DNA of 64,000 nucleotides. Source: the human T2T-CHM13v2.0 reference genome, Homo sapiens. The notes under the pieces are model-generated. The model did no database searches, was not told where the DNA came from, and was given only the letters and a program-made list of their open reading frames with translations. Of the stretch, positions 53,132 through 60,410 are shown in pieces. A program made the translations under genes and the position numbers. The stretch lies in NCBI RefSeq assembly GCF_009914755.1, contig NC_060938.1; one strand, 5' to 3'. Numbering within the stretch: position 1 is the stretch's first letter; each line of letters starts with the position of its first letter.

Positions 53132-55470
53132 ATGGAGCAGATGGTTCTCAAAGCAAGATGGACCTCTGAGCAAGATGAGCTCCAAGCTTGATGGAGCTCA
53201 GAGCAGATGGAGCTCCAGGTGAGATGGAGCTCCGATTAATATGAAGCTCGGAGCAGATGTTTCTGAGTATGATGGAGCACCAAGCCTGTGGTCTCAGAGC
53301 AAGATGGAGCTCCGAGCAGATGGTACTCAGAGCCAGATGGAGCTAGGAGTGACTGGGGCTCTGAGCAAGGTGGAGCTCAGAACAGATGGTGCTCAGAGCA
53401 AGATGGAGCTTGGAGTGATTGGAGCTCCAAGCAAGATGGAGCTTGGAGCAGATGGAGCTCTTAGCAGATGGAACTCAGAGCACCATGGAGCATGGAGTGT
53501 CCAGCTCAGAGCAAATATAGCTCAGACAAGAAGGAGCTCCAAGCAAGATGGAGCTTGGAGCCGATGTTCCTCTGTGTAAGATGGAGCCCAGAGCAAGATA
53601 AAGCTTGGAGTCGTTGGAACTCTCAACAGTTCTCTGAGCAGTTGGAACTCTGAGCAAGATGGAGCTCTGAACAAGATGGTACTCAGAGCAGATGAAACTC
53701 TGAGCAATAAGGAGATCTAAGCAAGATGGAGCTTTGTGCAGATGTTGCTCAGTTTCAGATGGAGCTCAGAGCAGATGGTGCTCAGAGCATGATGGAGCTC
53801 AGAATGATTAGAGCTCCAAGCAAGATGGAGCTCAGAGAAGATTGAGCTTGGAGCAGATAGAGCTCTGAACAAAAAGGAGCTCCAAGCAAGATGGAACTTG
53901 GAGCAGATGTTGCTCGGTGTAAGATGGAGCTCAGAGCAGATGCTCGTAACAACATGGAGCTTGAAATGATTGGAACTTAAAAACTTTACTCTGGAGGATT
54001 GGAACTCTGAGCAGATAGTGATCAGAGCAAGATCAGCCTCGGAGTGATTAGAGCTTCGAGCACAATGGGGCTTGGAGCAGATGCAGCTCTGAGCAAGATG
54101 TAGCTCAGAAAACATGTTGCTCACAGTAAGATGTAGCTTGAGCAGATGGTGTTCAGAGCAAAATGATGCTGGAAGTAATTGGAGCTCTCAGCAAGCTGGA
54201 GCTCGGAGCAGATGGAGCTTGGAGCAAACGAAGTTCGGAGCAAGAAGGAGCTCTAAGCAAGATGGAGCTTGGGGCAAATGTTCCTCAGTTTCAGATGGAG
54301 TTCAGAACAGATGGTGCTCAGAGCAAGATGGAGCTCAGAGAACATGCTGCTTACAGTAAGATGGAGCTTCGAGCACATGATGCTCAGAACAAAATGGAGC
54401 TGGAAGTGATTGGAGATATCAGCAAGATGGAGCTAGAAGATGCAGCTCCGAGAATATGGAGCTCTGAGCAGAGGGTACTCAGAGCAAGATGGAGTTTGGA
54501 GGGATTGGAGCTCTGAGAAAGATGGAGCTTGGAGCAAATGGAGCTCTGAGTAAATGGAGCTCTGAGCAAAGTGGAGCTCAGAGTGATGGAAGCTCTAAAG
54601 CAAGATGGAGCTGGGAGTAGATGGAGCTTCAAGAAGATGGTGCTCAGAGCAAGATGGAGCTTGGAGTGATTGGATCTCCGAACCAGATGGAGCTCAGATC
54701 AGATAGACCTCTGAGCAAGAAGGAGCTCCAAACAAAATGGAACTTGGAGCAGATGTTGCTGGTGTAAGATGGAGCTCAGAGCAGATGGTACTCAGAGCAA
54801 GAGGGAGCTCAGAATGATTGGCACTCTGAACATGCTCTGAGCAATTGGAGCTCTGAGCAAGATGCAGCTCAGAGCAGACAGAGCTCTGAGCAAAAAAGGA
54901 GCTCTAAGCAAGATGGAGTTTGGAGGAGACGTTGCTTGGTTTTAGTTGGAGCTCAGAGCAAAACGGAGCCCACAGTGATTACAGCTCCAAGCAAGGTAGA
55001 GCTCAGAGCACATGTAGCTCAGAGTAAGATGAGCTCTGTCCACATGGTGCTCAGAGCAAAATGGAGCTAGAAGTGATTGGAGCTCCCAGCAAGATGGGGC
55101 TTGGAGTGATTGGAACTCCTAGCAAGATGGAGCTCAAAGTGGATGGATCTCTGACTAGATGGAGCTCTGAGTAAGATGAATGTCTATGCAGATGTTGCTC
55201 ACAGCAAGATAGTGCTTGGAGCGATTGGCACTTCGAGCAAGATGGAGCTTGGAGCAGATGGAGCTCTGAGCAAGATGGAGCTTGGAGTAGATAGAGCTTG
55301 GAGCAAGAAGGAGCTCCAAGCAAGATGGAGCTTGCAGCAGGTGCTTCTCAGTGTAAGATGGAGCTCAGAGAAGATGATGCTCAGAGCAAGGTTGAGCTCA
55401 GGGTGATTGGCACTCCAAACATTGCTCTGAGCCCATTGGAGCTCTGAGCAAGAAGGTGGGAAGTGAGCAA
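53132..55470 (+). repeat. Degenerate minisatellite of 16/17-bp subunits forming a 33-bp unit
   Basis: gagcaagatggagctca plus gagcagatggtgctca repeated over ~2.3 kb; ORFs show 11-aa repeats SKMELGADGAL. Confidence 0.92.
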
Positions 55471-55479
55471 GAAGGTGAA

Positions 55480-58400
55480 GAAGTGATACATTCCCACAGA
55501 ACATTACAAGTTTAGCGGAAGCTATTATTGAATGTAAAGAGAAGAATGCCCCAGAATTCTATGTGGATTGTCGGGACAATACTCATTTCTGTAATCAGGC
55601 CTACTTTCTTTTAAAAAGTTTATCATATCAAACCTCACAAGGACAACCAGAACTCTGCGATATCCACTCTACAAACCTCAGACCCCTACAGTGTAGTAAA
55701 GGTGGCAGCCAAGATAGAAAGACAGAAACACACTGTTTGATGACCAGTCTTTGGAAGTTGAGACAGCAAATGTGGATTTACTCAGATTATTTTCCTGTTA
55801 GCACCTCCAGGTGTTATTTTGATGGTACTTTGCATTGGGCTGATGACACAATGGGGAAACATAAACTGCTGACGCTGGACTTCAGCAGTACAGTAACAGC
55901 CATGTGCAAGGCCATTGAAAAAGTAAAGACTGGTGGTTACATTGCCACGTGTTTTTCTGCATGGCATCATCATCTTAACTATGGACTTTATGTGCTTTCA
56001 CAGCAAGATGTTTCTAGTATTTAGAAATGGACCTTATGCATTGTATACTTCCTAAGAGCTTGGAAAGCTCTCACCCAGGTACTACCAAATGCCAGACATC
56101 TCTCTATGTGGGCCATTTTCTGCCACAGCCAGAATTCATTCTGGGTGACATGCTGTTCTTGGCTGCTAAGGAAGTGATGTGGGGGAGCCAGGTGTCTCTC
56201 GCTGTCTGTGAGTCTATGGGAAAAAGGAGAATACTGAAAGGCACTAAGTTTACTGCCATGTTTAGAGGAGCTTTGTCAAGGCAACACAAGAGTGTTGTAG
56301 TCCTTTGTGGCCAACACCAACCTGAGTTTTTACAGCAGTTGTTGCATAATGATCACAGTCACATTCAAGTTCACTTTCTAAATCTTAGGTTCTACAAAAA
56401 CTCTGTCTGATAATGTCCTATAGACCTTTCGGTAGCTAAAATCAATGAGTTTGAAAAATAATTTGAATTTGGCTTGCTCACCTTTTCAGCAGAATGCACT
56501 TGTGAGTCCTGCTCTGTCATTGTATTTTACATGTGTGGCTGTCCCTCTTGCTGTGTTGGAAGTCAGTGTTCCAGAATGTTAACTTCTACAAATACCTATG
56601 TATAGAGCAAAGAGAAAACTCTTCAAGTCAAAAGAGTGTATATTATTTCAGGGCAGCTCTCTAGCCTTGGATTTGAAACTATAGTATTTGTTACACAGAG
56701 AGAAGATGGTTCTTTTTTGTATTTTATTTTTAATGTTTGTGGGTACATAGTATTTATGGAGTACATGAGATGTTTTGACACGGGCATTCAATGTGAAAAA
56801 AAGCACATCCTAGAGAATGGGGTATCCCCTCAGTGATTCTTTGAGTTACAAATATTCCAATTACACTCTTTATGTTATTTTCAAATATATGATTAAGTTA
56901 TTATTGACTATAGTCACCTGGGTTTGCTATCAAATAGTAGGTTTTTATTATATATTATTTCTTTTTTGTTTTTTGTATCCATTAACAATTCCTGCCTCCC
57001 CCTCACTCTCTCACTACCCTTCCCAAGCTCTGGTAATCATCCTTCTACTCTCTACGTCCATGAGTTTAATTGTTTTTATTTTTAGATCCCGGAAATAAGC
57101 GAGAACACATGATGTTTGTATTTCTGTGCCTGGCTTATTTTTCTTGACATAATCATCTTCAGTTCCATCCATGTTGTTGCAAATGACAGGCTTTCATTTT
57201 TATGGCTGAATAGTACTCCACTGTGTATATGTACCACATTTTCTTCATTCATCTGTTGATGGACACTTAGGTTGCTTTCAAATATTAGTAATTGTAAACA
57301 GTGCTGCAGCAAACCTAGGAGTGCAGAAATCTCTTTGATATACTCATTTCCTTTCTTTTGGGTATATACCAAGCAGTGGGATTTTTGGATCATATGGTAG
57401 TATATCTGTTTTTTTTCAGGAAACTCCAAACTGTCCAAGGAGATAGTTCTGTTGTGATTACTTCATTGAGAAATTTAACTTATGAGCAGTTGAAAGGAAT
57501 GCAAGTTGCTGCAAAATCAGAATGAAGAGTGCAAAACGACTAAGCTACAATGTTTTGTCATTATTCACTCTGATGTGAAAAAGGCAGTGAATTTAATAGA
57601 AAATAACTTCGTAGAGCAAAATCTCAGGTGTGTTTTTTTAGTGCCGCAGTCTTGGATGATGGGTTCCTAGAAGCTCTCAACATCTCTTCTTAATTGGAGA
57701 AAGTGTTAAGCCCCAAAGTAGCTGGAGCAGTACATCTTCAATTTTTGACAAGAAAGCAGGAACTTGATTACTTTGAGTGCTATTCATTAGTTTCTGCTTT
57801 CATTGAGAATGCAACAAAAGCCAACTAGGCTGCTGCTAACTCCTTGCTGGACTTCTTCTGCCACTGTCACAGGAACTGTAATCTCACTGGACAATTAACT
57901 AGGGAGTCTTTCATCTTGAGTGACTGCTGCACAAATGATCTTCAAAGCATTTTAGCCACCAGAGGAATTCTCTTGAAATACCCAAAATCCATCAGTATCT
58001 TGAATCATGCTGGATTTTGAAGAATTCTTAACAAGCCATGTAAAGGGGGCTCTCTGGCCTTGAAATAGTGATGTTTTTTATACAGAAAGGAGAATGCAGA
58101 ATGGTCAGACTACCATGCACTGTTAAATTTGATTTCAAGAAATTACAGGAAAACTTTCCAAAGTTCCATCTCACAGAAATTATTTTTACAAAGAATTCCA
58201 AGATAAGTTTAGTTTTATGGAAGACTTTTATGTGGTTTTTACTCACTCTTCATCTCAGACATCAACAGATGATTACATCACTTATTTAGCTAGTAAATTT
58301 ATTAATATAAAAACTCAGAGACATTCCAATATCCACATTGCTTACACCATTAGGCATAGATTCAGTGTCAGCTATGACAATTGAAAATAAGCTGTTTTGT

Positions 58401-58499
58401 GATTTAAAGGTTTAAATTTCTCTAACCAAACTGCTTGATCCAGATGCAGGACTGCAAATGTTAATATTTGTTCTGGAAGAACAATCAAATAAGACTTAA
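55480..58499 (+). pseudogene. Fossil of a vertebrate-type type I polyketide synthase, C-terminal ER-KR-ACP region
   Basis: Colinear motifs: YSDYFPVS..KHKLLTLDFSSTVTAMCKAIEKVKTG (ER-like, from 55779); VYIISGQLSSLGFETIVFVTQR (KR Rossmann, 56636); SAAVLDDG..EKVLSPKVAGAVHL..LDYFECYSLVSAFIENATKAN*AAANSLLDFFCH (KR, 57640-57870); LGIDSVSAMTIEN..LTKLLDP (ACP, 58350-58442). Many stops and frameshifts. Confidence 0.88.
56714..57437 (-). mobile_element. L1MA (L1MA1-like) 3' fragment inserted in the PKS KR coding sequence
   Basis: T-rich tail, then tttgtgggtacatagt..gagatgttttgacacgggc; flanked by agaagatggttct / aggagatagttct (11/13 match). Confidence 0.88.
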
Positions 58500-60410
58500 G
58501 AGGAAAAGGAATGGCCACAATCCACCTGAAATTTTTTTTTTAAAAAGTGTGCAGCCTACTAAATCAGAATGAAAATAGAAGTACAAGATTATAAACAAAA
58601 TGCAATCAAACTTTTCTTAAGCTTACCTAAAGTTATTTCATCTGAAAATTTCAAGCAACTTTGTTCAACATTAAATTGACAATCTAAACTAACAAGTCTT
58701 TTGAATTTATGCATGGTAGTAAACATTCTCTCTATTAACTTTATTACCTAAGGCTAAACCTAAAATTTTTAAGCAAAATTAGAAAAATAGTCTTCACTCA
58801 TCAAAAAATAAAGTTTGTTACATTTAGTATTTTCCCAATAAAATTGGTCGTTCTTGGTTTTTTATTTGGAGAGTCTGTGCAAAATGTCACTAAAAATAAA
58901 TTAGCACTAGAAATTATTTCTAAATACCAAAAAAAAAAAAAATGAAGAATGGTTTCACAAAGAAAAAAAGAAAACTTTCTTAATTAGCAGAGTATCATCT
59001 CTGTGATTTTTGTGATTATTTGATCAGTGTGCTGAGATGGATACAATGGCAAGTAATGACAAAATTAAAATAAGCATGCAGATTTTTTTAAATTAAGTGC
59101 CAAAAAATAATGGGTCGTGCAAAGCCCTTAAAAACACTGTGGCCTAATTCTAAAGTTTTTTGCTACTATGCTACATCACACCCAACATCAGTTAAGTGCT
59201 CATTCTGTGACAGGTAGTACATTACATTTTAGCAAACTACACAAGACCCCTATGTGATAATATGCTTCGGGGTTGTAAGGTTGGGTGCGTTTAGTAGTCT
59301 TGAATTTTCTGGGAGTATACAAACCCAATATTAGTCTAGATGCCCAAAGATCTATTTAGACGTCAAAGTAGAATGGAGAGAAATCTTGACCACAGGAAGC
59401 TGTGTTGTGGCATTTATTTTGAAATGATTTTTTCTTGATTTTTTTGCCTTTTAATTCTTTTGTGAGTTTTATAATGCACAGAATATTTTTAAATTATTAT
59501 ATATATAAACTGATTAGTCTTCAATTTAAACTTACACCTCTGGGGTCTTACTTGGGTTTCTCCTAACAATATTATACACATATTTGCAATAATTTCTCTC
59601 ATACTGCTTTTAACTCATTTAATTTTTCAACTTTTTAAGAATAACAAAAGTGATATTAACTGTAAAAATGCTGAAGTGACATATGAATTTATGAAGTGCA
59701 TATGTATTTTTTATTTTACCAATGAGATGGGAGAAATGCTGTCTTATATTTTAACATACATTTTGGCCATTACACAGATGAAGCAACTTTTCATTTGTTA
59801 ATACATAGCATACGTTTTCTTCTGTGTAATTCCTCTTTATATTCTTTGCTCATTTTCCCACTGGGATTTGCAAGTTCTTTATTATTTGATAATCTCTATA
59901 CATTCTGAATATCCATTTTTTTGTTATATATACCATGTAAATATTTTCTTCTAATTTATTTGTCTCAATGGTATTTATCAAGTGTTTGCTAAAAATGAGT
60001 TTGTTTAGTTAGTAAAATTTGTCTGTCTTTTACTTCATGATATTTATATTTCATGTCATGAGGAAAAGGCATGAATATTTTAAAAACTTCCTTGTAGTAT
60101 TAATTTTATTTTTTATTTCATTCTTTAAGTTATTTGAAATTTATTGTTTATTTCTTCAAATTCCAAATAATAACCAACTTTCTCAAAGTAATACTTCTTT
60201 CTACTGATTTCAAATGTTACATTTGTCTTCTCTGAAGTTCTTGTCTATTTGATACCTGACGGTCACACTACTGCTGTGGATGTGCTTCGTACCACCACAG
60301 TACTGTAGGGTTATAAGATTATCTGATAGCCAATAGAAGCAGACCTCTACTCACTGTCATTCTTTTTTCTTTTGGAGAAGAAAGTTAGCTATTTTTATCT
60401 GGGTTCTCAA

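What the first reader, a model, noticed from the sequence alone, without database searches (positions are those of the whole stretch)
55480..58499. Fossil animal polyketide synthase gene (ER-KR-ACP) in human pericentromeric DNA
Seen: hand translation across frameshifts gives, in the expected order, an ER-like segment (TSDPYSV at 55675; YSDYFPVS at 55779; KLLTLDFSSTVTA..EKVKTG; CIVYFLRAWKALTQVLP) and a KR Rossmann motif (VYIISGQLSSLGFET). Next come the KR core (AAVLDDG, PKVAG, LDYF, AN*AAANSLLD) and an ACP with the phosphopantetheine motif LGIDS (Ser codon 58362-58364), with no thioesterase after it. Known: KS-AT-DH-ER-KR-ACP without TE is the architecture of vertebrate iterative PKSs (medaka/zebrafish pks1 for otolith formation, budgerigar MuPKS for psittacofulvin), a class generally described as missing from humans. 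From memory, SDYFPVS and LLALDFSGTVTAVG are characteristic of those proteins. Inference: this is a remnant of a lost ancestral mammalian PKS that was copied into a pericentromeric duplicon, and I do not recall it being annotated as such. The ~2.3 kb of coding remnant has no visible introns, so it is either one large exon or a retrocopy.
Basis: partly seen in the sequence, partly recalled or inferred. Interest (0 to 1): 0.95.

Follow-up and report, generated by a model that had tools for sequence, protein, structure and literature searches.

The report
Fossil polyketide synthase gene in humans
This stretch is the decayed tail of a polyketide synthase gene that fish, birds and marsupials still have and placental mammals are reported to lack, so humans inherited the gene and then let it rot.

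Summary
Window 55482-58487 (+) aligns colinearly with residues 1338-2085 of marsupial type I polyketide synthase (PKS). That covers the ER-like region, KR and ACP: 730 codons, 46% identity, 17 frameshifts, 5 stops, and one L1-like insert at 56714-57441 with a 9-bp target duplication. The alignment score is 897, against 36-48 for shuffled controls. Pfam finds KR (E 6e-15).

In trees the human pieces form one clade, sister to marsupial PKSs, and the gene tree follows the species tree. This argues against a FASN origin, contamination or horizontal transfer.

T2T-CHM13 holds further pieces:
- Near-identical tails on chr14 (two) and chr22, and one on chr2 at 96%.
- An older copy on chr16, cut in two by 13.1 Mb whose two sampled edges are HSat2-like satellite.
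- AT-DH-KR-ACP pieces on chr13.
- Five spliced KS exons on chr10p12.1.

The chr10, chr13 and chr16 pieces each lie downstream of an ANKRD26-family exon. The copies diverged neutrally.

The missing introns reflect the giant sixth exon of living vertebrate PKS genes. This is not a retrocopy.

My literature searches found no report of such a human relic. It is a non-functional gene fossil, apparently undescribed.

The parts
53135..55401 (.). Minisatellite with a 16-17 bp unit (GAGCAGATGGAGCTCA, about 139 copies). It replaces everything 5' of PKS residue 1338 in this copy. It is not PKS-derived and marks the 5' boundary.
   Evidence: Tandem Repeats Finder. It is also present upstream of the chr2 copy. 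The chr16 copy instead continues into the DH domain at this point.
55482..56632 (+). DH-KR interdomain and ER-like region, guide residues 1338-1736: 385 aligned codons, 44% identity, 13 frameshifts, 2 stops. The ADH_N-like core is at 55755-55952 (48.5% identity, no lesion).
   Evidence: Pfam ADH_N is only sub-threshold even in the intact guide protein and was not detected in the window.
56633..56713 (+). Start of the KR domain. This is the degenerate NADPH-binding strand-loop VYIISGQLSSLGFET; Trichosurus has VYIVSGGLTGLGFET.
56714..57441 (.). Interspersed-repeat (L1-like) insertion that interrupts KR. It is flanked by the 9-bp target-site duplication at 56705-56713 and 57442-57450.
   Evidence: 8801 first-look candidates genome-wide, with unrelated copies 77-81% identical. 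The insert is shared by the chr14, chr22, chr2 and chr16 copies. The target duplication was read.
57451..57915 (+). Rest of the KR domain. Over the whole KR: 181 codons, 52.5% identity, 1 frameshift, 1 stop. By alignment to the conserved N-Y-A-A-A-N of the guide, the Tyr codon of that KR motif reads TAG at 57826-57828. That this Tyr is the catalytic residue is recalled, not tested.
   Evidence: Pfam KR E 6e-15; PDB KR domains of PksJ, MlnE and FASN. The same codon reads TAT in the chr16 and chr13 copies and GAG in chr2.
57916..58240 (+). KR-ACP linker: 82 codons, 35% identity, 2 frameshifts, 1 stop.
58241..58487 (+). ACP: 82 codons, 50% identity, 1 frameshift, 1 stop. It carries LGIDS, with the Ser codon at 58362-58364 aligned to LGMDS/LGIDS of intact PKSs. 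The first in-frame stop is TAA at 58497-58499.
   Evidence: Pfam PP-binding was not detected on the window translation.
58488..59080 (+). 3' flank that is still homologous among copies. It contains AATAAA at 58895-58900. Homology with the chr13 copy ends there, while homology with the chr16 copy runs on. There is no poly(A) tail.

Best explanation
Window 55482-58499 is a non-functional relic of the 3' part of the giant last exon (exon 6) of a vertebrate iterative type I polyketide synthase. The gene's layout is KS-AT-DH-ER-like-KR-ACP with no thioesterase.

The gene came to the human lineage by vertical descent; its closest living relatives are the marsupial PKSs. It stopped being maintained, took an L1-like insertion in KR and many frameshifts and stops, and was copied as plain genomic DNA by segmental duplication.

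Inferred, not shown: the original gene lay just downstream of, and on the same strand as, an ANKRD26-family gene. The chr10p12.1 locus still holds the start codon and exons 1-5 (the N-terminal KS domain). Copies of the ANKRD26-PKS unit went to chr13 and chr16. A chr16-type tail later joined the POTE-associated pericentromeric block now on chr14 (twice), chr22 and chr2.

The remnant does nothing today. It lies in an intron of the transcribed pseudogene DUXAP9.
For: Homology and order:
- Pfam KR E 6e-15.
- Colinear tblastn matches, E 2e-18, 3e-22 and 3e-7.
- Frameshift-aware alignment over residues 1338-2085: 730 codons, 46% identity, score 897 against 36-48 for 10 shuffles.

Descent:
- The 7 best of 25 reference PKSs by summed score are all marsupial.
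- In maximum-likelihood trees of 28 references plus 4 human rows, the human rows form one clade (100/99) sister to the marsupials (mammal clade 100/100). The tree otherwise follows the order fish, lungfish, amphibians, amniotes.
- Building the human rows on a crocodilian guide gave the same topology.

Decay:
- 17 frameshifts, 5 stops and the L1-like insert in the window copy.
- Differences between copies show no third-codon-position excess. For chr14 vs chr16 the rates are 0.189/0.129/0.154, and for chr14 vs chr13 0.278/0.227/0.205.
- The PKS part diverged as fast as the L1-like insert inside it (0.156 against 0.149).
- The chr14 and chr16 copies share 4 frameshifts, 1 stop and the insert.

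Copies.

Large exon rather than retrocopy:
- chr13 is uninterrupted over residues 660-1317, and chr16 over 1016-2085 apart from the satellite and the L1-like insert.
- chr10 has five exon-sized pieces with an ATG, 5 GT donors and 4 AG acceptors.
- Medaka and parrot PKS genes have six exons, and in parrots codons 428-1957 fall in exon 6 (PMC4604110, PMC11739604, passages read).

ANKRD26 link:
- A DUF3496 exon lies upstream on the same strand at chr10 (37 kb), chr13 (25 kb) and chr16 (8 kb).
- chr16:52271687-52272700 is about 75% identical to chr10:27041856-27042654.
- POTEM lies upstream of the window (hub table), and POTE genes descend from ANKRD26 (PMC7073761, passages read).
Against: - Pfam did not detect an ER (ADH) or PP-binding domain on the window translations (0 of 9). 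Those two domains rest on alignment to vertebrate PKSs only.
- The ancestral-locus part is inferred. I found no unique DNA homology between the flanks of the tail copies and chr10:26930001-27020000.
- The 5.3 kb between the ANKRD26-like exon and the PKS piece on chr16 does not match chr10.
- chr10 has no exon 6, and residues 260-659 were found nowhere in the genome.
- No lesion is clearly shared between the chr13 copy and the others. Whether the gene was already dead at the first duplication is therefore open.
- The human protein rows used in the trees were built by my own alignment script against a guide protein, which could bias them. The crocodilian-guide control argues against that.
- No placental genome other than human could be searched.
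Confidence: 0.92

Rival explanations
1. The tail copies are 5'-truncated processed retrocopies of a PKS mRNA, not genomic duplicates.
For: There are no introns across 2.3-4.3 kb of coding remnant. Homology between the chr13 copy and the others stops right at an AATAAA signal. No lesion is clearly shared between the chr13 copy and the chr16/chr14 copies. The chr10 exons are less decayed than the tails.
Against: No poly(A) tail follows the signal in any of the 4 copies aligned. The A-run in the window is only AAAAA in the chr16 copy. Homology between chr14 and chr16 continues past the signal. The intron-free stretch lies inside the giant exon 6 of living genes, so missing introns are uninformative (PMC11739604, passages read). 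Three loci each have an ANKRD26-family exon upstream on the same strand, which genomic co-duplication explains and retroposition does not.
Confidence: 0.08
2. It is a diverged pseudogene of human fatty acid synthase (FASN) or of another short-chain dehydrogenase.
For: The FASN KR is among the solved structures matched (E 1e-6). FASN has the same KR-ACP order.
Against: The match to FASN covers only about 87 residues at 30-32 bits. Marsupial PKS aligns over 730 codons at 46% identity. The ER-like and ACP segments match vertebrate PKS and not FASN. In the genome-wide search with a PKS query, the FASN locus appears separately and only through its KS. There is no thioesterase.
Confidence: 0.01
3. 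It is foreign DNA, either bacterial or fungal PKS by horizontal transfer or assembly contamination.
For: Many of the 150 best representative hits are giant multi-module proteins at 27-42% identity, and the best solved-structure hits are bacterial KR domains.
Against: It is present at seven places in a telomere-to-telomere assembly. It is pierced by a primate-genome interspersed repeat and, on chr16, flanked by human-type satellite. Its identity to vertebrate single-module PKSs is higher, at 46-55%. It sits as sister to marsupials in a tree that mirrors vertebrate phylogeny.
Confidence: 0.01
4. Part of the gene is not fully dead. The chr10 KS exons stayed under selection much longer than the tails, or are still spliced into an RNA or a short protein.
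For: Over 250 codons the chr10 exons have 0 stops, 1 frameshift, an intact ATG, 9 of 9 canonical splice dinucleotides and the DSACSSS cysteine motif. The tails carry 22-25 lesions per 730-1045 codons. That predicts 5-7.5 lesions in 250 codons, giving my own Poisson P of about 0.005-0.03.
Against: The human KS branch is about 2-3 times longer than the marsupial branches, much as in the tail. There is no exon 6 on chr10. No named placental row is among the 120 best relatives listed. Local alignment exon by exon hides lesions at exon edges. Pericentromeric copies may also mutate faster than unique sequence.
Confidence: 0.12

Closest known systems
Marsupial type I PKSs, for example Trichosurus vulpecula '6-methylsalicylic acid synthase-like' (P0355, 2102 aa) and Monodelphis domestica 'mycocerosic acid synthase-like' (P0365). 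The names are as given by NCBI.
   Same: Same domain order. The window tail is 46% identical over 730 codons and the chr10 KS exons are 64-76% identical. They are the sister group in trees.
   Different: The marsupial genes are predicted to be intact. The human copies are broken, fragmented and dispersed. The function of the marsupial enzymes is unknown (PMC10764717, passages read).
Medaka OlPKS and zebrafish pks1, which are needed for otolith nucleation.
   Same: Same family and architecture, and a six-exon gene (PMC4604110, passage read). Fish PKSs of this family, for example Salmo P0114, align colinearly with the window.
   Different: Fish sequences are more distant, at 34-55% identity in the matched segments. 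I did not test whether OlPKS/pks1 is the one-to-one orthologue. The human relic cannot make a product.
Parrot psittacofulvin synthase (MuPKS).
   Same: A six-exon gene with codon 112 in exon 3, codon 243 in exon 5 and codons 428-1957 in exon 6 (PMC11739604, passages read). This matches the human chr10 exon layout. Parrot proteins in the sister sauropsid clade carry 5-6 of 8 published residues at a single numbering offset, so they are probably that gene.
   Different: Orthology with MuPKS is only suggested. The bird enzyme is active and the human relic is not.
Human FASN.
   Same: Related megasynthase with KR and ACP in the same order. A weak KR match (E 1e-6).
   Different: Much lower similarity. 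FASN has a thioesterase, lies at a different locus (chr17) and has many small exons. The remnant is not derived from it.

Membership tests
Vertebrate iterative type I PKS (KS-AT-DH-ER-like-KR-ACP, no TE) | KR domain recognisable by a family model | tested here: met
   Pfam PF08659 at E 6e-15, 56.1 bits against a cut-off of 22.6, on window 57451-58020 read through with X at stops.
Vertebrate iterative type I PKS (KS-AT-DH-ER-like-KR-ACP, no TE) | Colinear ER-like, KR and ACP segments in the order of intact members | tested here: met
   A single alignment path covers residues 1338-2085 and window 55482-58487. The tblastn matches are colinear. Controls scored 36-48 against 897.
Vertebrate iterative type I PKS (KS-AT-DH-ER-like-KR-ACP, no TE) | ACP with the phosphopantetheine-attachment serine motif | tested here: inconclusive
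   LGIDS aligns with LGMDS/LGIDS of intact members, and the segment is 50% identical over 82 codons. Pfam PP-binding did not fire on the window translation.
Vertebrate iterative type I PKS (KS-AT-DH-ER-like-KR-ACP, no TE) | ER domain | tested here: inconclusive
   No ADH model fired on the window. Intact members themselves give only a sub-threshold ADH_N hit, 19-22.6 bits against a cut-off of 23.5. The homologous segment is present at 48.5% identity.
Vertebrate iterative type I PKS (KS-AT-DH-ER-like-KR-ACP, no TE) | Placement inside the vertebrate PKS clade | tested here: met
   Human clade 100/99, and human plus marsupial clade 100/100. The result is robust to the choice of guide. FASN and microbial outgroups were not included in the trees.
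Vertebrate iterative type I PKS (KS-AT-DH-ER-like-KR-ACP, no TE) | Gene layout of five small exons plus one giant exon | tested here: met
   chr10 has five exon-sized KS pieces with splice signals. There are intron-free tails on chr13, chr16 and chr14. The layout in living species comes from PMC4604110 and PMC11739604 (passages read).
Vertebrate iterative type I PKS (KS-AT-DH-ER-like-KR-ACP, no TE) | Intact reading frame, that is, a working enzyme | tested here: not met
   17 frameshifts, 5 stops, an L1-like insert in KR and TAG at the Tyr codon of the conserved N-Y-A-A-A-N motif. It is a pseudogene of the family, not a functional member.
FASN-derived pseudogene | Closest relative is FASN, and a thioesterase follows the ACP | tested here: not met
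   The FASN KR matches at only 30-32 bits over about 87 residues. The in-frame stop comes 3 codons after the last aligned ACP residue. The best relatives are PKSs.
Processed pseudogene (retrocopy) | Poly(A) tail after the poly(A) signal, and loss of all introns including those between exons 1-5 | tested here: not met
   No poly(A) tail in the 4 copies aligned. The only KS exons in the genome still have their introns. Target-site duplications of the copies themselves were not examined.

The most novel reading that the evidence does not exclude
The PKS gene next to ANKRD26 on chr10p12.1 outlived its duplicated tails by a long time. It keeps its start codon, all nine splice dinucleotides, the active-site cysteine motif and an almost open frame over 250 codons. 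If so, a working PKS, or a spliced KS-bearing transcript, persisted well into primate evolution or is still expressed. Loss of PKS in placental mammals would then be several later, parallel events and not one loss at the base of the group.
Probability: 0.12. Interest if true: 0.8.

Novelty: new member of a known kind. Interest (0 to 1): 0.6.

Why it matters
Animal PKSs have a patchy distribution. [quoted passage not shown]

A datable relic in the human genome that sits as sister to marsupial PKSs shows vertical inheritance followed by decay. It also supplies a candidate ancestral locus beside ANKRD26 that can be checked in other mammals.

The finding also adds a parent-less unitary pseudogene that pipelines seeded with human or mouse proteins would miss (my inference). 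Finally, it gives markers for the history of the POTE/ANKRD26 pericentromeric duplications and of the chr16 satellite block.

Tried and rejected
- Pfam on single open frames and read-through frames found only KR. There was no ER or ACP hit.
- The search for homologous proteins with the window KR and 'longer' lengths found nothing, because of the tool's word and length limits.
- The protein-atlas look-up of P0021 returned generic bacterial and haptophyte PKS clusters and did not help. A first try with P0114 was over the size limit.
- A genome-wide DNA search with chr10:26990001-27000000 was swamped by an L1 element. The raw blastn of chr10 against the window was likewise swamped by Alu and L1.
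- A search for residues 250-744 of the Trichosurus PKS in the human genome found only OXSM, FASN and the chr13 AT pieces. The C-terminal KS half and the KS-AT linker appear to be gone.
- The first codon-position test, which compared codons through the guide alignment, was inflated by register errors (chr14-chr2 10% against 3.7% true). I replaced it with a nucleotide alignment.
- Candidate lesions shared between the chr13 copy and the others were checked by eye. Two stops lie in adjacent codons, not the same one. The indels lie in a poly-A run or conflict with the tree. They were not accepted as shared.
- Published parrot residue numbers did not match bird proteins at zero offset. They matched 5-6 of 8 at one offset.
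- The bacterial promoter/terminator scan was irrelevant to this eukaryotic sequence.
- I did not fold any structure. It would add nothing for a broken gene.
Full report
**What is in the window**

Of 11 stop-to-stop frames, 1 hit Pfam KR (E 3.2e-7). I then read nine longer stretches through their stops, writing X at each stop. Of these 9, 1 hit KR at E 6e-15 (56.1 bits, cut-off 22.6). None hit an alcohol-dehydrogenase or PP-binding model.

Against solved structures, the 38 sequences matched at E up to 1 were all KR-bearing PKS or FAS chains. The best was Bacillus PksJ (2.1e-7), and human FASN scored 1e-6 over about 87 residues.

A search of 1.84 billion representative proteins gave 5800 hits at E up to 0.001. 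Most of the 150 listed were multi-module giants at 27-42% identity. Two single-module proteins of 2104 and 2108 residues matched at 53% and 48%. A named database later identified these two as PKSs of Salmo salar and Pogona vitticeps.

tblastn of those two proteins against the whole window gave colinear matches:
- residues 1340-1745 to 55482-56654 (E 2e-18)
- residues 1780-1939 to 57494-57969 (E 3e-22)
- residues 2028-2094 to 58320-58523 (E 3e-7)

Nothing upstream in the window scored better than E 0.37.

**Anatomy of the window copy**

I wrote a protein-to-DNA aligner that allows frameshifts, and tested it on a toy case. Against the Trichosurus PKS (P0355, 2102 aa) it produced one path:
- guide residues 1338-2085, window 55482-58487
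- 730 aligned codons at 46.0% identity
- 17 frameshifts and 5 in-frame stops
- score 897

The reversed guide scored 39 and ten shuffled guides scored 36-48.

| Domain | Window | Identity | Lesions |
|---|---|---|---|
| ER-like / interdomain | 55482-56632 | 44% | 13 frameshifts, 2 stops |
| ADH_N-like core (inside the above) | 55755-55952 | 48.5% | none |
| KR | 56633-57915 | 52.5% | 1 frameshift, 1 stop |
| KR-ACP linker | 57916-58240 | 35% | 2 frameshifts, 1 stop |
| ACP | 58241-58487 | 50% | 1 frameshift, 1 stop |

Other details:
- The Tyr codon of the conserved N-Y-A-A-A-N motif of KR reads TAG at 57826-57828.
- The ACP serine codon is TCA at 58362-58364.
- An in-frame TAA follows at 58497-58499. 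No thioesterase follows.

KR is interrupted at 56714-57441 by a repeat with 8801 first-look candidates in the genome. Unrelated copies are 77-81% identical to it. It is flanked by a 9-bp duplication at 56705-56713 and 57442-57450.

A 16-17 bp minisatellite at 53135-55401 lies upstream, and PKS homology starts at 55482.

Intact relatives give only a sub-threshold Pfam ADH_N hit in this region. 'ER-like' is therefore the accurate term.

**Whose gene it was**

Among 25 vertebrate PKSs, the seven with the highest summed tblastn scores to the window are all marsupial.

I added four human rows to an alignment of 28 reference PKSs. The rows were chr14, chr2, chr16 and chr13, built from the frameshift-aware alignments with X at stops. 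Alignment segments scoring under 100 were dropped. The second chr14 copy and the chr22 copy were left out because they are about 100% identical to the window over the stretch compared.

The careful tree (748 columns) gave these supports (ultrafast bootstrap / SH-aLRT):
- human clade 100/99
- marsupial clade 96/97
- human plus marsupial clade 100/100

Sauropsids, amphibians, lungfish and ray-finned fish branch in species-tree order. The quick tree agrees. Rebuilding the human rows on a gharial guide gave the same topology with supports of 100.

Separate trees for the KS exons and for the AT-DH region also place the human rows inside the mammal clade, at 99 and 100. The position relative to the two marsupial paralogue groups is not stable between regions.

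This rules out a FASN origin, contamination and horizontal transfer. Two limits apply. No FASN or microbial outgroup was in the trees. The rows depend on my own aligner.

**Other pieces in the same genome (T2T-CHM13)**

A DNA search with 57451-58500 found the window itself plus:
- chr14:13637796-13638845 on the minus strand (100%)
- chr22:16370773 (100%)
- chr2:132131544 (95%)
- chr16:39.164 Mb (82-83%)
- chr13:18.453 Mb (75-76%)

A protein search with the salmon PKS added:
- chr13:18454978 (AT)
- chr13:20479664 (AT)
- chr16:52263423-52264884 (DH and ER-like)
- chr10:26994419-27002058 (KS, no stops)

It also found the true genes FASN and OXSM. That search ran in a stricter mode and may have missed weak pieces.

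Aligned to the Trichosurus guide:

| Copy | Guide residues | Lesions (frameshifts plus stops) |
|---|---|---|
| chr13:18.45 Mb | 660-1317 and 1885-2085 (the stretch between is deleted) | 25 |
| chr13:20.48 Mb | 660-976 | 5 |
| chr16 | 1016-1513 at 52.26 Mb and 1513-2085 at 39.16 Mb | 22 |
| chr2 | 1338-2085 | 22 |
| chr10 | 1-252 in five pieces | 1 |

Residues 260-659 were not found anywhere. A query covering Trichosurus residues 250-744 returned 7 matches, all of them OXSM, FASN or the chr13 AT pieces. Nothing further was found on chr10 down to 26930001.

**Large exon, not retrocopy**

The chr10 pieces begin with ATG. They have 5 of 5 GT donors and 4 of 4 AG acceptors with pyrimidine tracts. 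They keep the DSACSSS cysteine motif and carry one frameshift, in the fourth piece. Together they equal the Pfam ketoacyl-synt N-terminal domain, residues 5-253 in the guide.

Medaka olpks 'comprises six exons' (PMC4604110, passage read). The parrot PKS has six exons, with codon 112 in exon 3, codon 243 in exon 5 and codons 428, 668, 883 and 1957 in exon 6 (PMC11739604, passages read). The human layout fits this pattern. The intron-free tails all lie inside exon 6.

None of the four aligned copies has a poly(A) tail after the AATAAA at 58895-58900. The A-run in the window is only AAAAA in the chr16 copy, and chr14-chr16 homology continues past it. Homology with the chr13 copy does end at that signal. 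I cannot explain this, and it keeps a small probability on retroposition for that copy.

**History of the copies**

From a nucleotide alignment, excluding the L1-like insert:

| Pair | K2P distance |
|---|---|
| chr14-chr2 | 0.038 |
| chr14-chr16 | 0.177 |
| chr16-chr13 | 0.256 |
| chr14-chr13 | 0.292 |

Differences are not concentrated at third codon positions. For chr14-chr16 the rates are 0.189/0.129/0.154, for chr14-chr13 0.278/0.227/0.205, and for chr16-chr13 0.238/0.225/0.157. The L1-like insert diverged as fast as the coding remnant (0.149 against 0.156). All copies therefore evolved without protein-level constraint since they split.

The chr14 and chr16 copies share the L1-like insert and the same lesion type at guide residues 1367, 1395, 1500, 1526 and 1592. 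The tail was therefore already dead before that duplication.

I accepted no lesion as shared between chr13 and the others. The first duplication may therefore have copied a gene that was still intact or had only just died.

Absolute dates are inference only. The ANKRD26-like DNA next to the chr16 piece is 74-75% identical to its chr13 and chr10 counterparts. It is 72-73% identical to the paralogous family loci on chr17. This suggests that the deepest split is old, of the order of the early placental radiation.

**Link to ANKRD26 and POTE**

Pfam DUF3496, a C-terminal ANKRD26-family domain, matched 91 places in the genome. Three of them lie upstream of, and on the same strand as, a PKS piece:
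- chr10:27043066, 37 kb from PKS exon 1
- chr13:18481055, 25 kb from the PKS piece
- chr16:52272615, 8 kb from the PKS piece

With roughly 50 such loci in 3.1 Gb, one such coincidence has a chance of about 3e-4 (my estimate).

chr16:52271687-52272700 matches chr10:27041856-27042654 at 75%. The 5.3 kb between it and the PKS piece does not match chr10. No unique flank homology to chr10:26.93-27.02 Mb was found.

The window lies 69 kb downstream of POTEM on the same strand (hub table). POTE genes descend from ANKRD26 (PMC7073761, passages read). I conclude, with moderate confidence, that the PKS gene sat next to an ANKRD26-family gene and travelled with it.

**Is it known?**

Hojo et al. list '-' for human, cattle, dog, dolphin and mouse. 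[quoted passage not shown] Full-text searches gave the following:
- polyketide synthase with pseudogene and mammals: no paper describing a human PKS relic
- with ANKRD26: 0 papers
- with placental, eutherian and marsupial terms: the 15 papers listed of 2101 held no occurrence of 'polyketide synthase', and I saw no further rows
- with MuPKS and psittacofulvin: no such paper
- with otolith and pks1: no such paper

For the two otolith papers I read passages only, and they say nothing on a mammalian gene.

Among the 120 best relatives listed of 1425 for the Pogona tail, 8 named rows are marsupial and 0 are placental. Frogs are present. The other 1305 rows were not shown.

The RefSeq table supplied has no row for 55480-58499, which falls in a DUXAP9 intron. 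I could not inspect GENCODE or other tracks.

**Verdict**

This is a real gene fossil. It is the 3' part of exon 6 of a vertebrate type I PKS, inherited vertically, dead, pierced by an L1-like element and spread by segmental duplication. It has no present function. As far as my searches reach it is undescribed. It makes the loss of PKS in placental mammals directly testable.

Two side observations deserve follow-up. The chr10 KS exons are unusually well preserved. The chr16 copy is bisected by a 13.1-Mb interval whose two sampled edges are satellite.

Noticed in passing
G000 chr16:39163660-39166265 and chr16:52263389-52264884 (loci L005, L006, L021, L039, L049): The chr16 PKS copy is a single copy cut at guide residue 1513. 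On both sides the PKS sequence runs straight into GGAAT-rich HSat2-like satellite, and the two halves lie 13.1 Mb apart on the same strand. I sampled only 1.5 kb and 1 kb of the two edges. The 16q11.2 satellite block therefore appears to sit inside this pseudogene's ER-like region, which gives a precise junction marker for the array.
   Followed up: partly
G000 chr10:26994413-27006140, minus strand (loci L046, L047): There are five exon-sized KS pieces covering PKS residues 1-259. They have an ATG, all 5 GT donors, all 4 AG acceptors, the DSACSSS cysteine motif, no stop and a single frameshift. That is far fewer lesions than in the tails (1 against 5-7.5 expected in 250 codons). Exon 6 is absent from this locus.
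   Followed up: partly
G000 chr13:18453061-18455624 (minus) and chr13:20479548-20480471 (plus): Two copies of the AT-domain remnant lie 2 Mb apart in opposite orientation and are 85% identical. Both start at residue 660 and share a stop at 771, a frameshift at 920 and a stop at 925. An extra short AT fragment lies about 1.1 kb upstream of the second copy. The first copy has lost residues 1318-1884. One breakpoint of that deletion lies within about 30 nt of the point where the window copy's PKS homology begins.
   Followed up: partly
window 53135-55401: A long degenerate minisatellite (16-17 bp unit, about 139 copies, 62% matches) abuts the PKS remnant. It is shared with the chr2 copy. It produces many spurious open frames on both strands.
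   Followed up: partly
proteins P0004, P0008, P0076, P0107, P0141: Public protein collections hold short 'proteins' that are simply open frames called on these pseudogene copies. P0004 is 100% the chr2 copy. P0107 is 97% the chr2 copy and includes L1-derived residues. P0008 is closest to the chr16 copy at 87%, so it probably comes from another primate. They could mislead homology searches.
   Followed up: partly
G000 chr16:52266385-52271687 (locus L056): The 5.3 kb between the ANKRD26-like exon and the PKS piece on chr16 has no counterpart on chr10. It matches chr4:169355-171060 and chr4:427440-429733 at 70-72%, so another duplicated module of unknown origin sits there.
   Followed up: no
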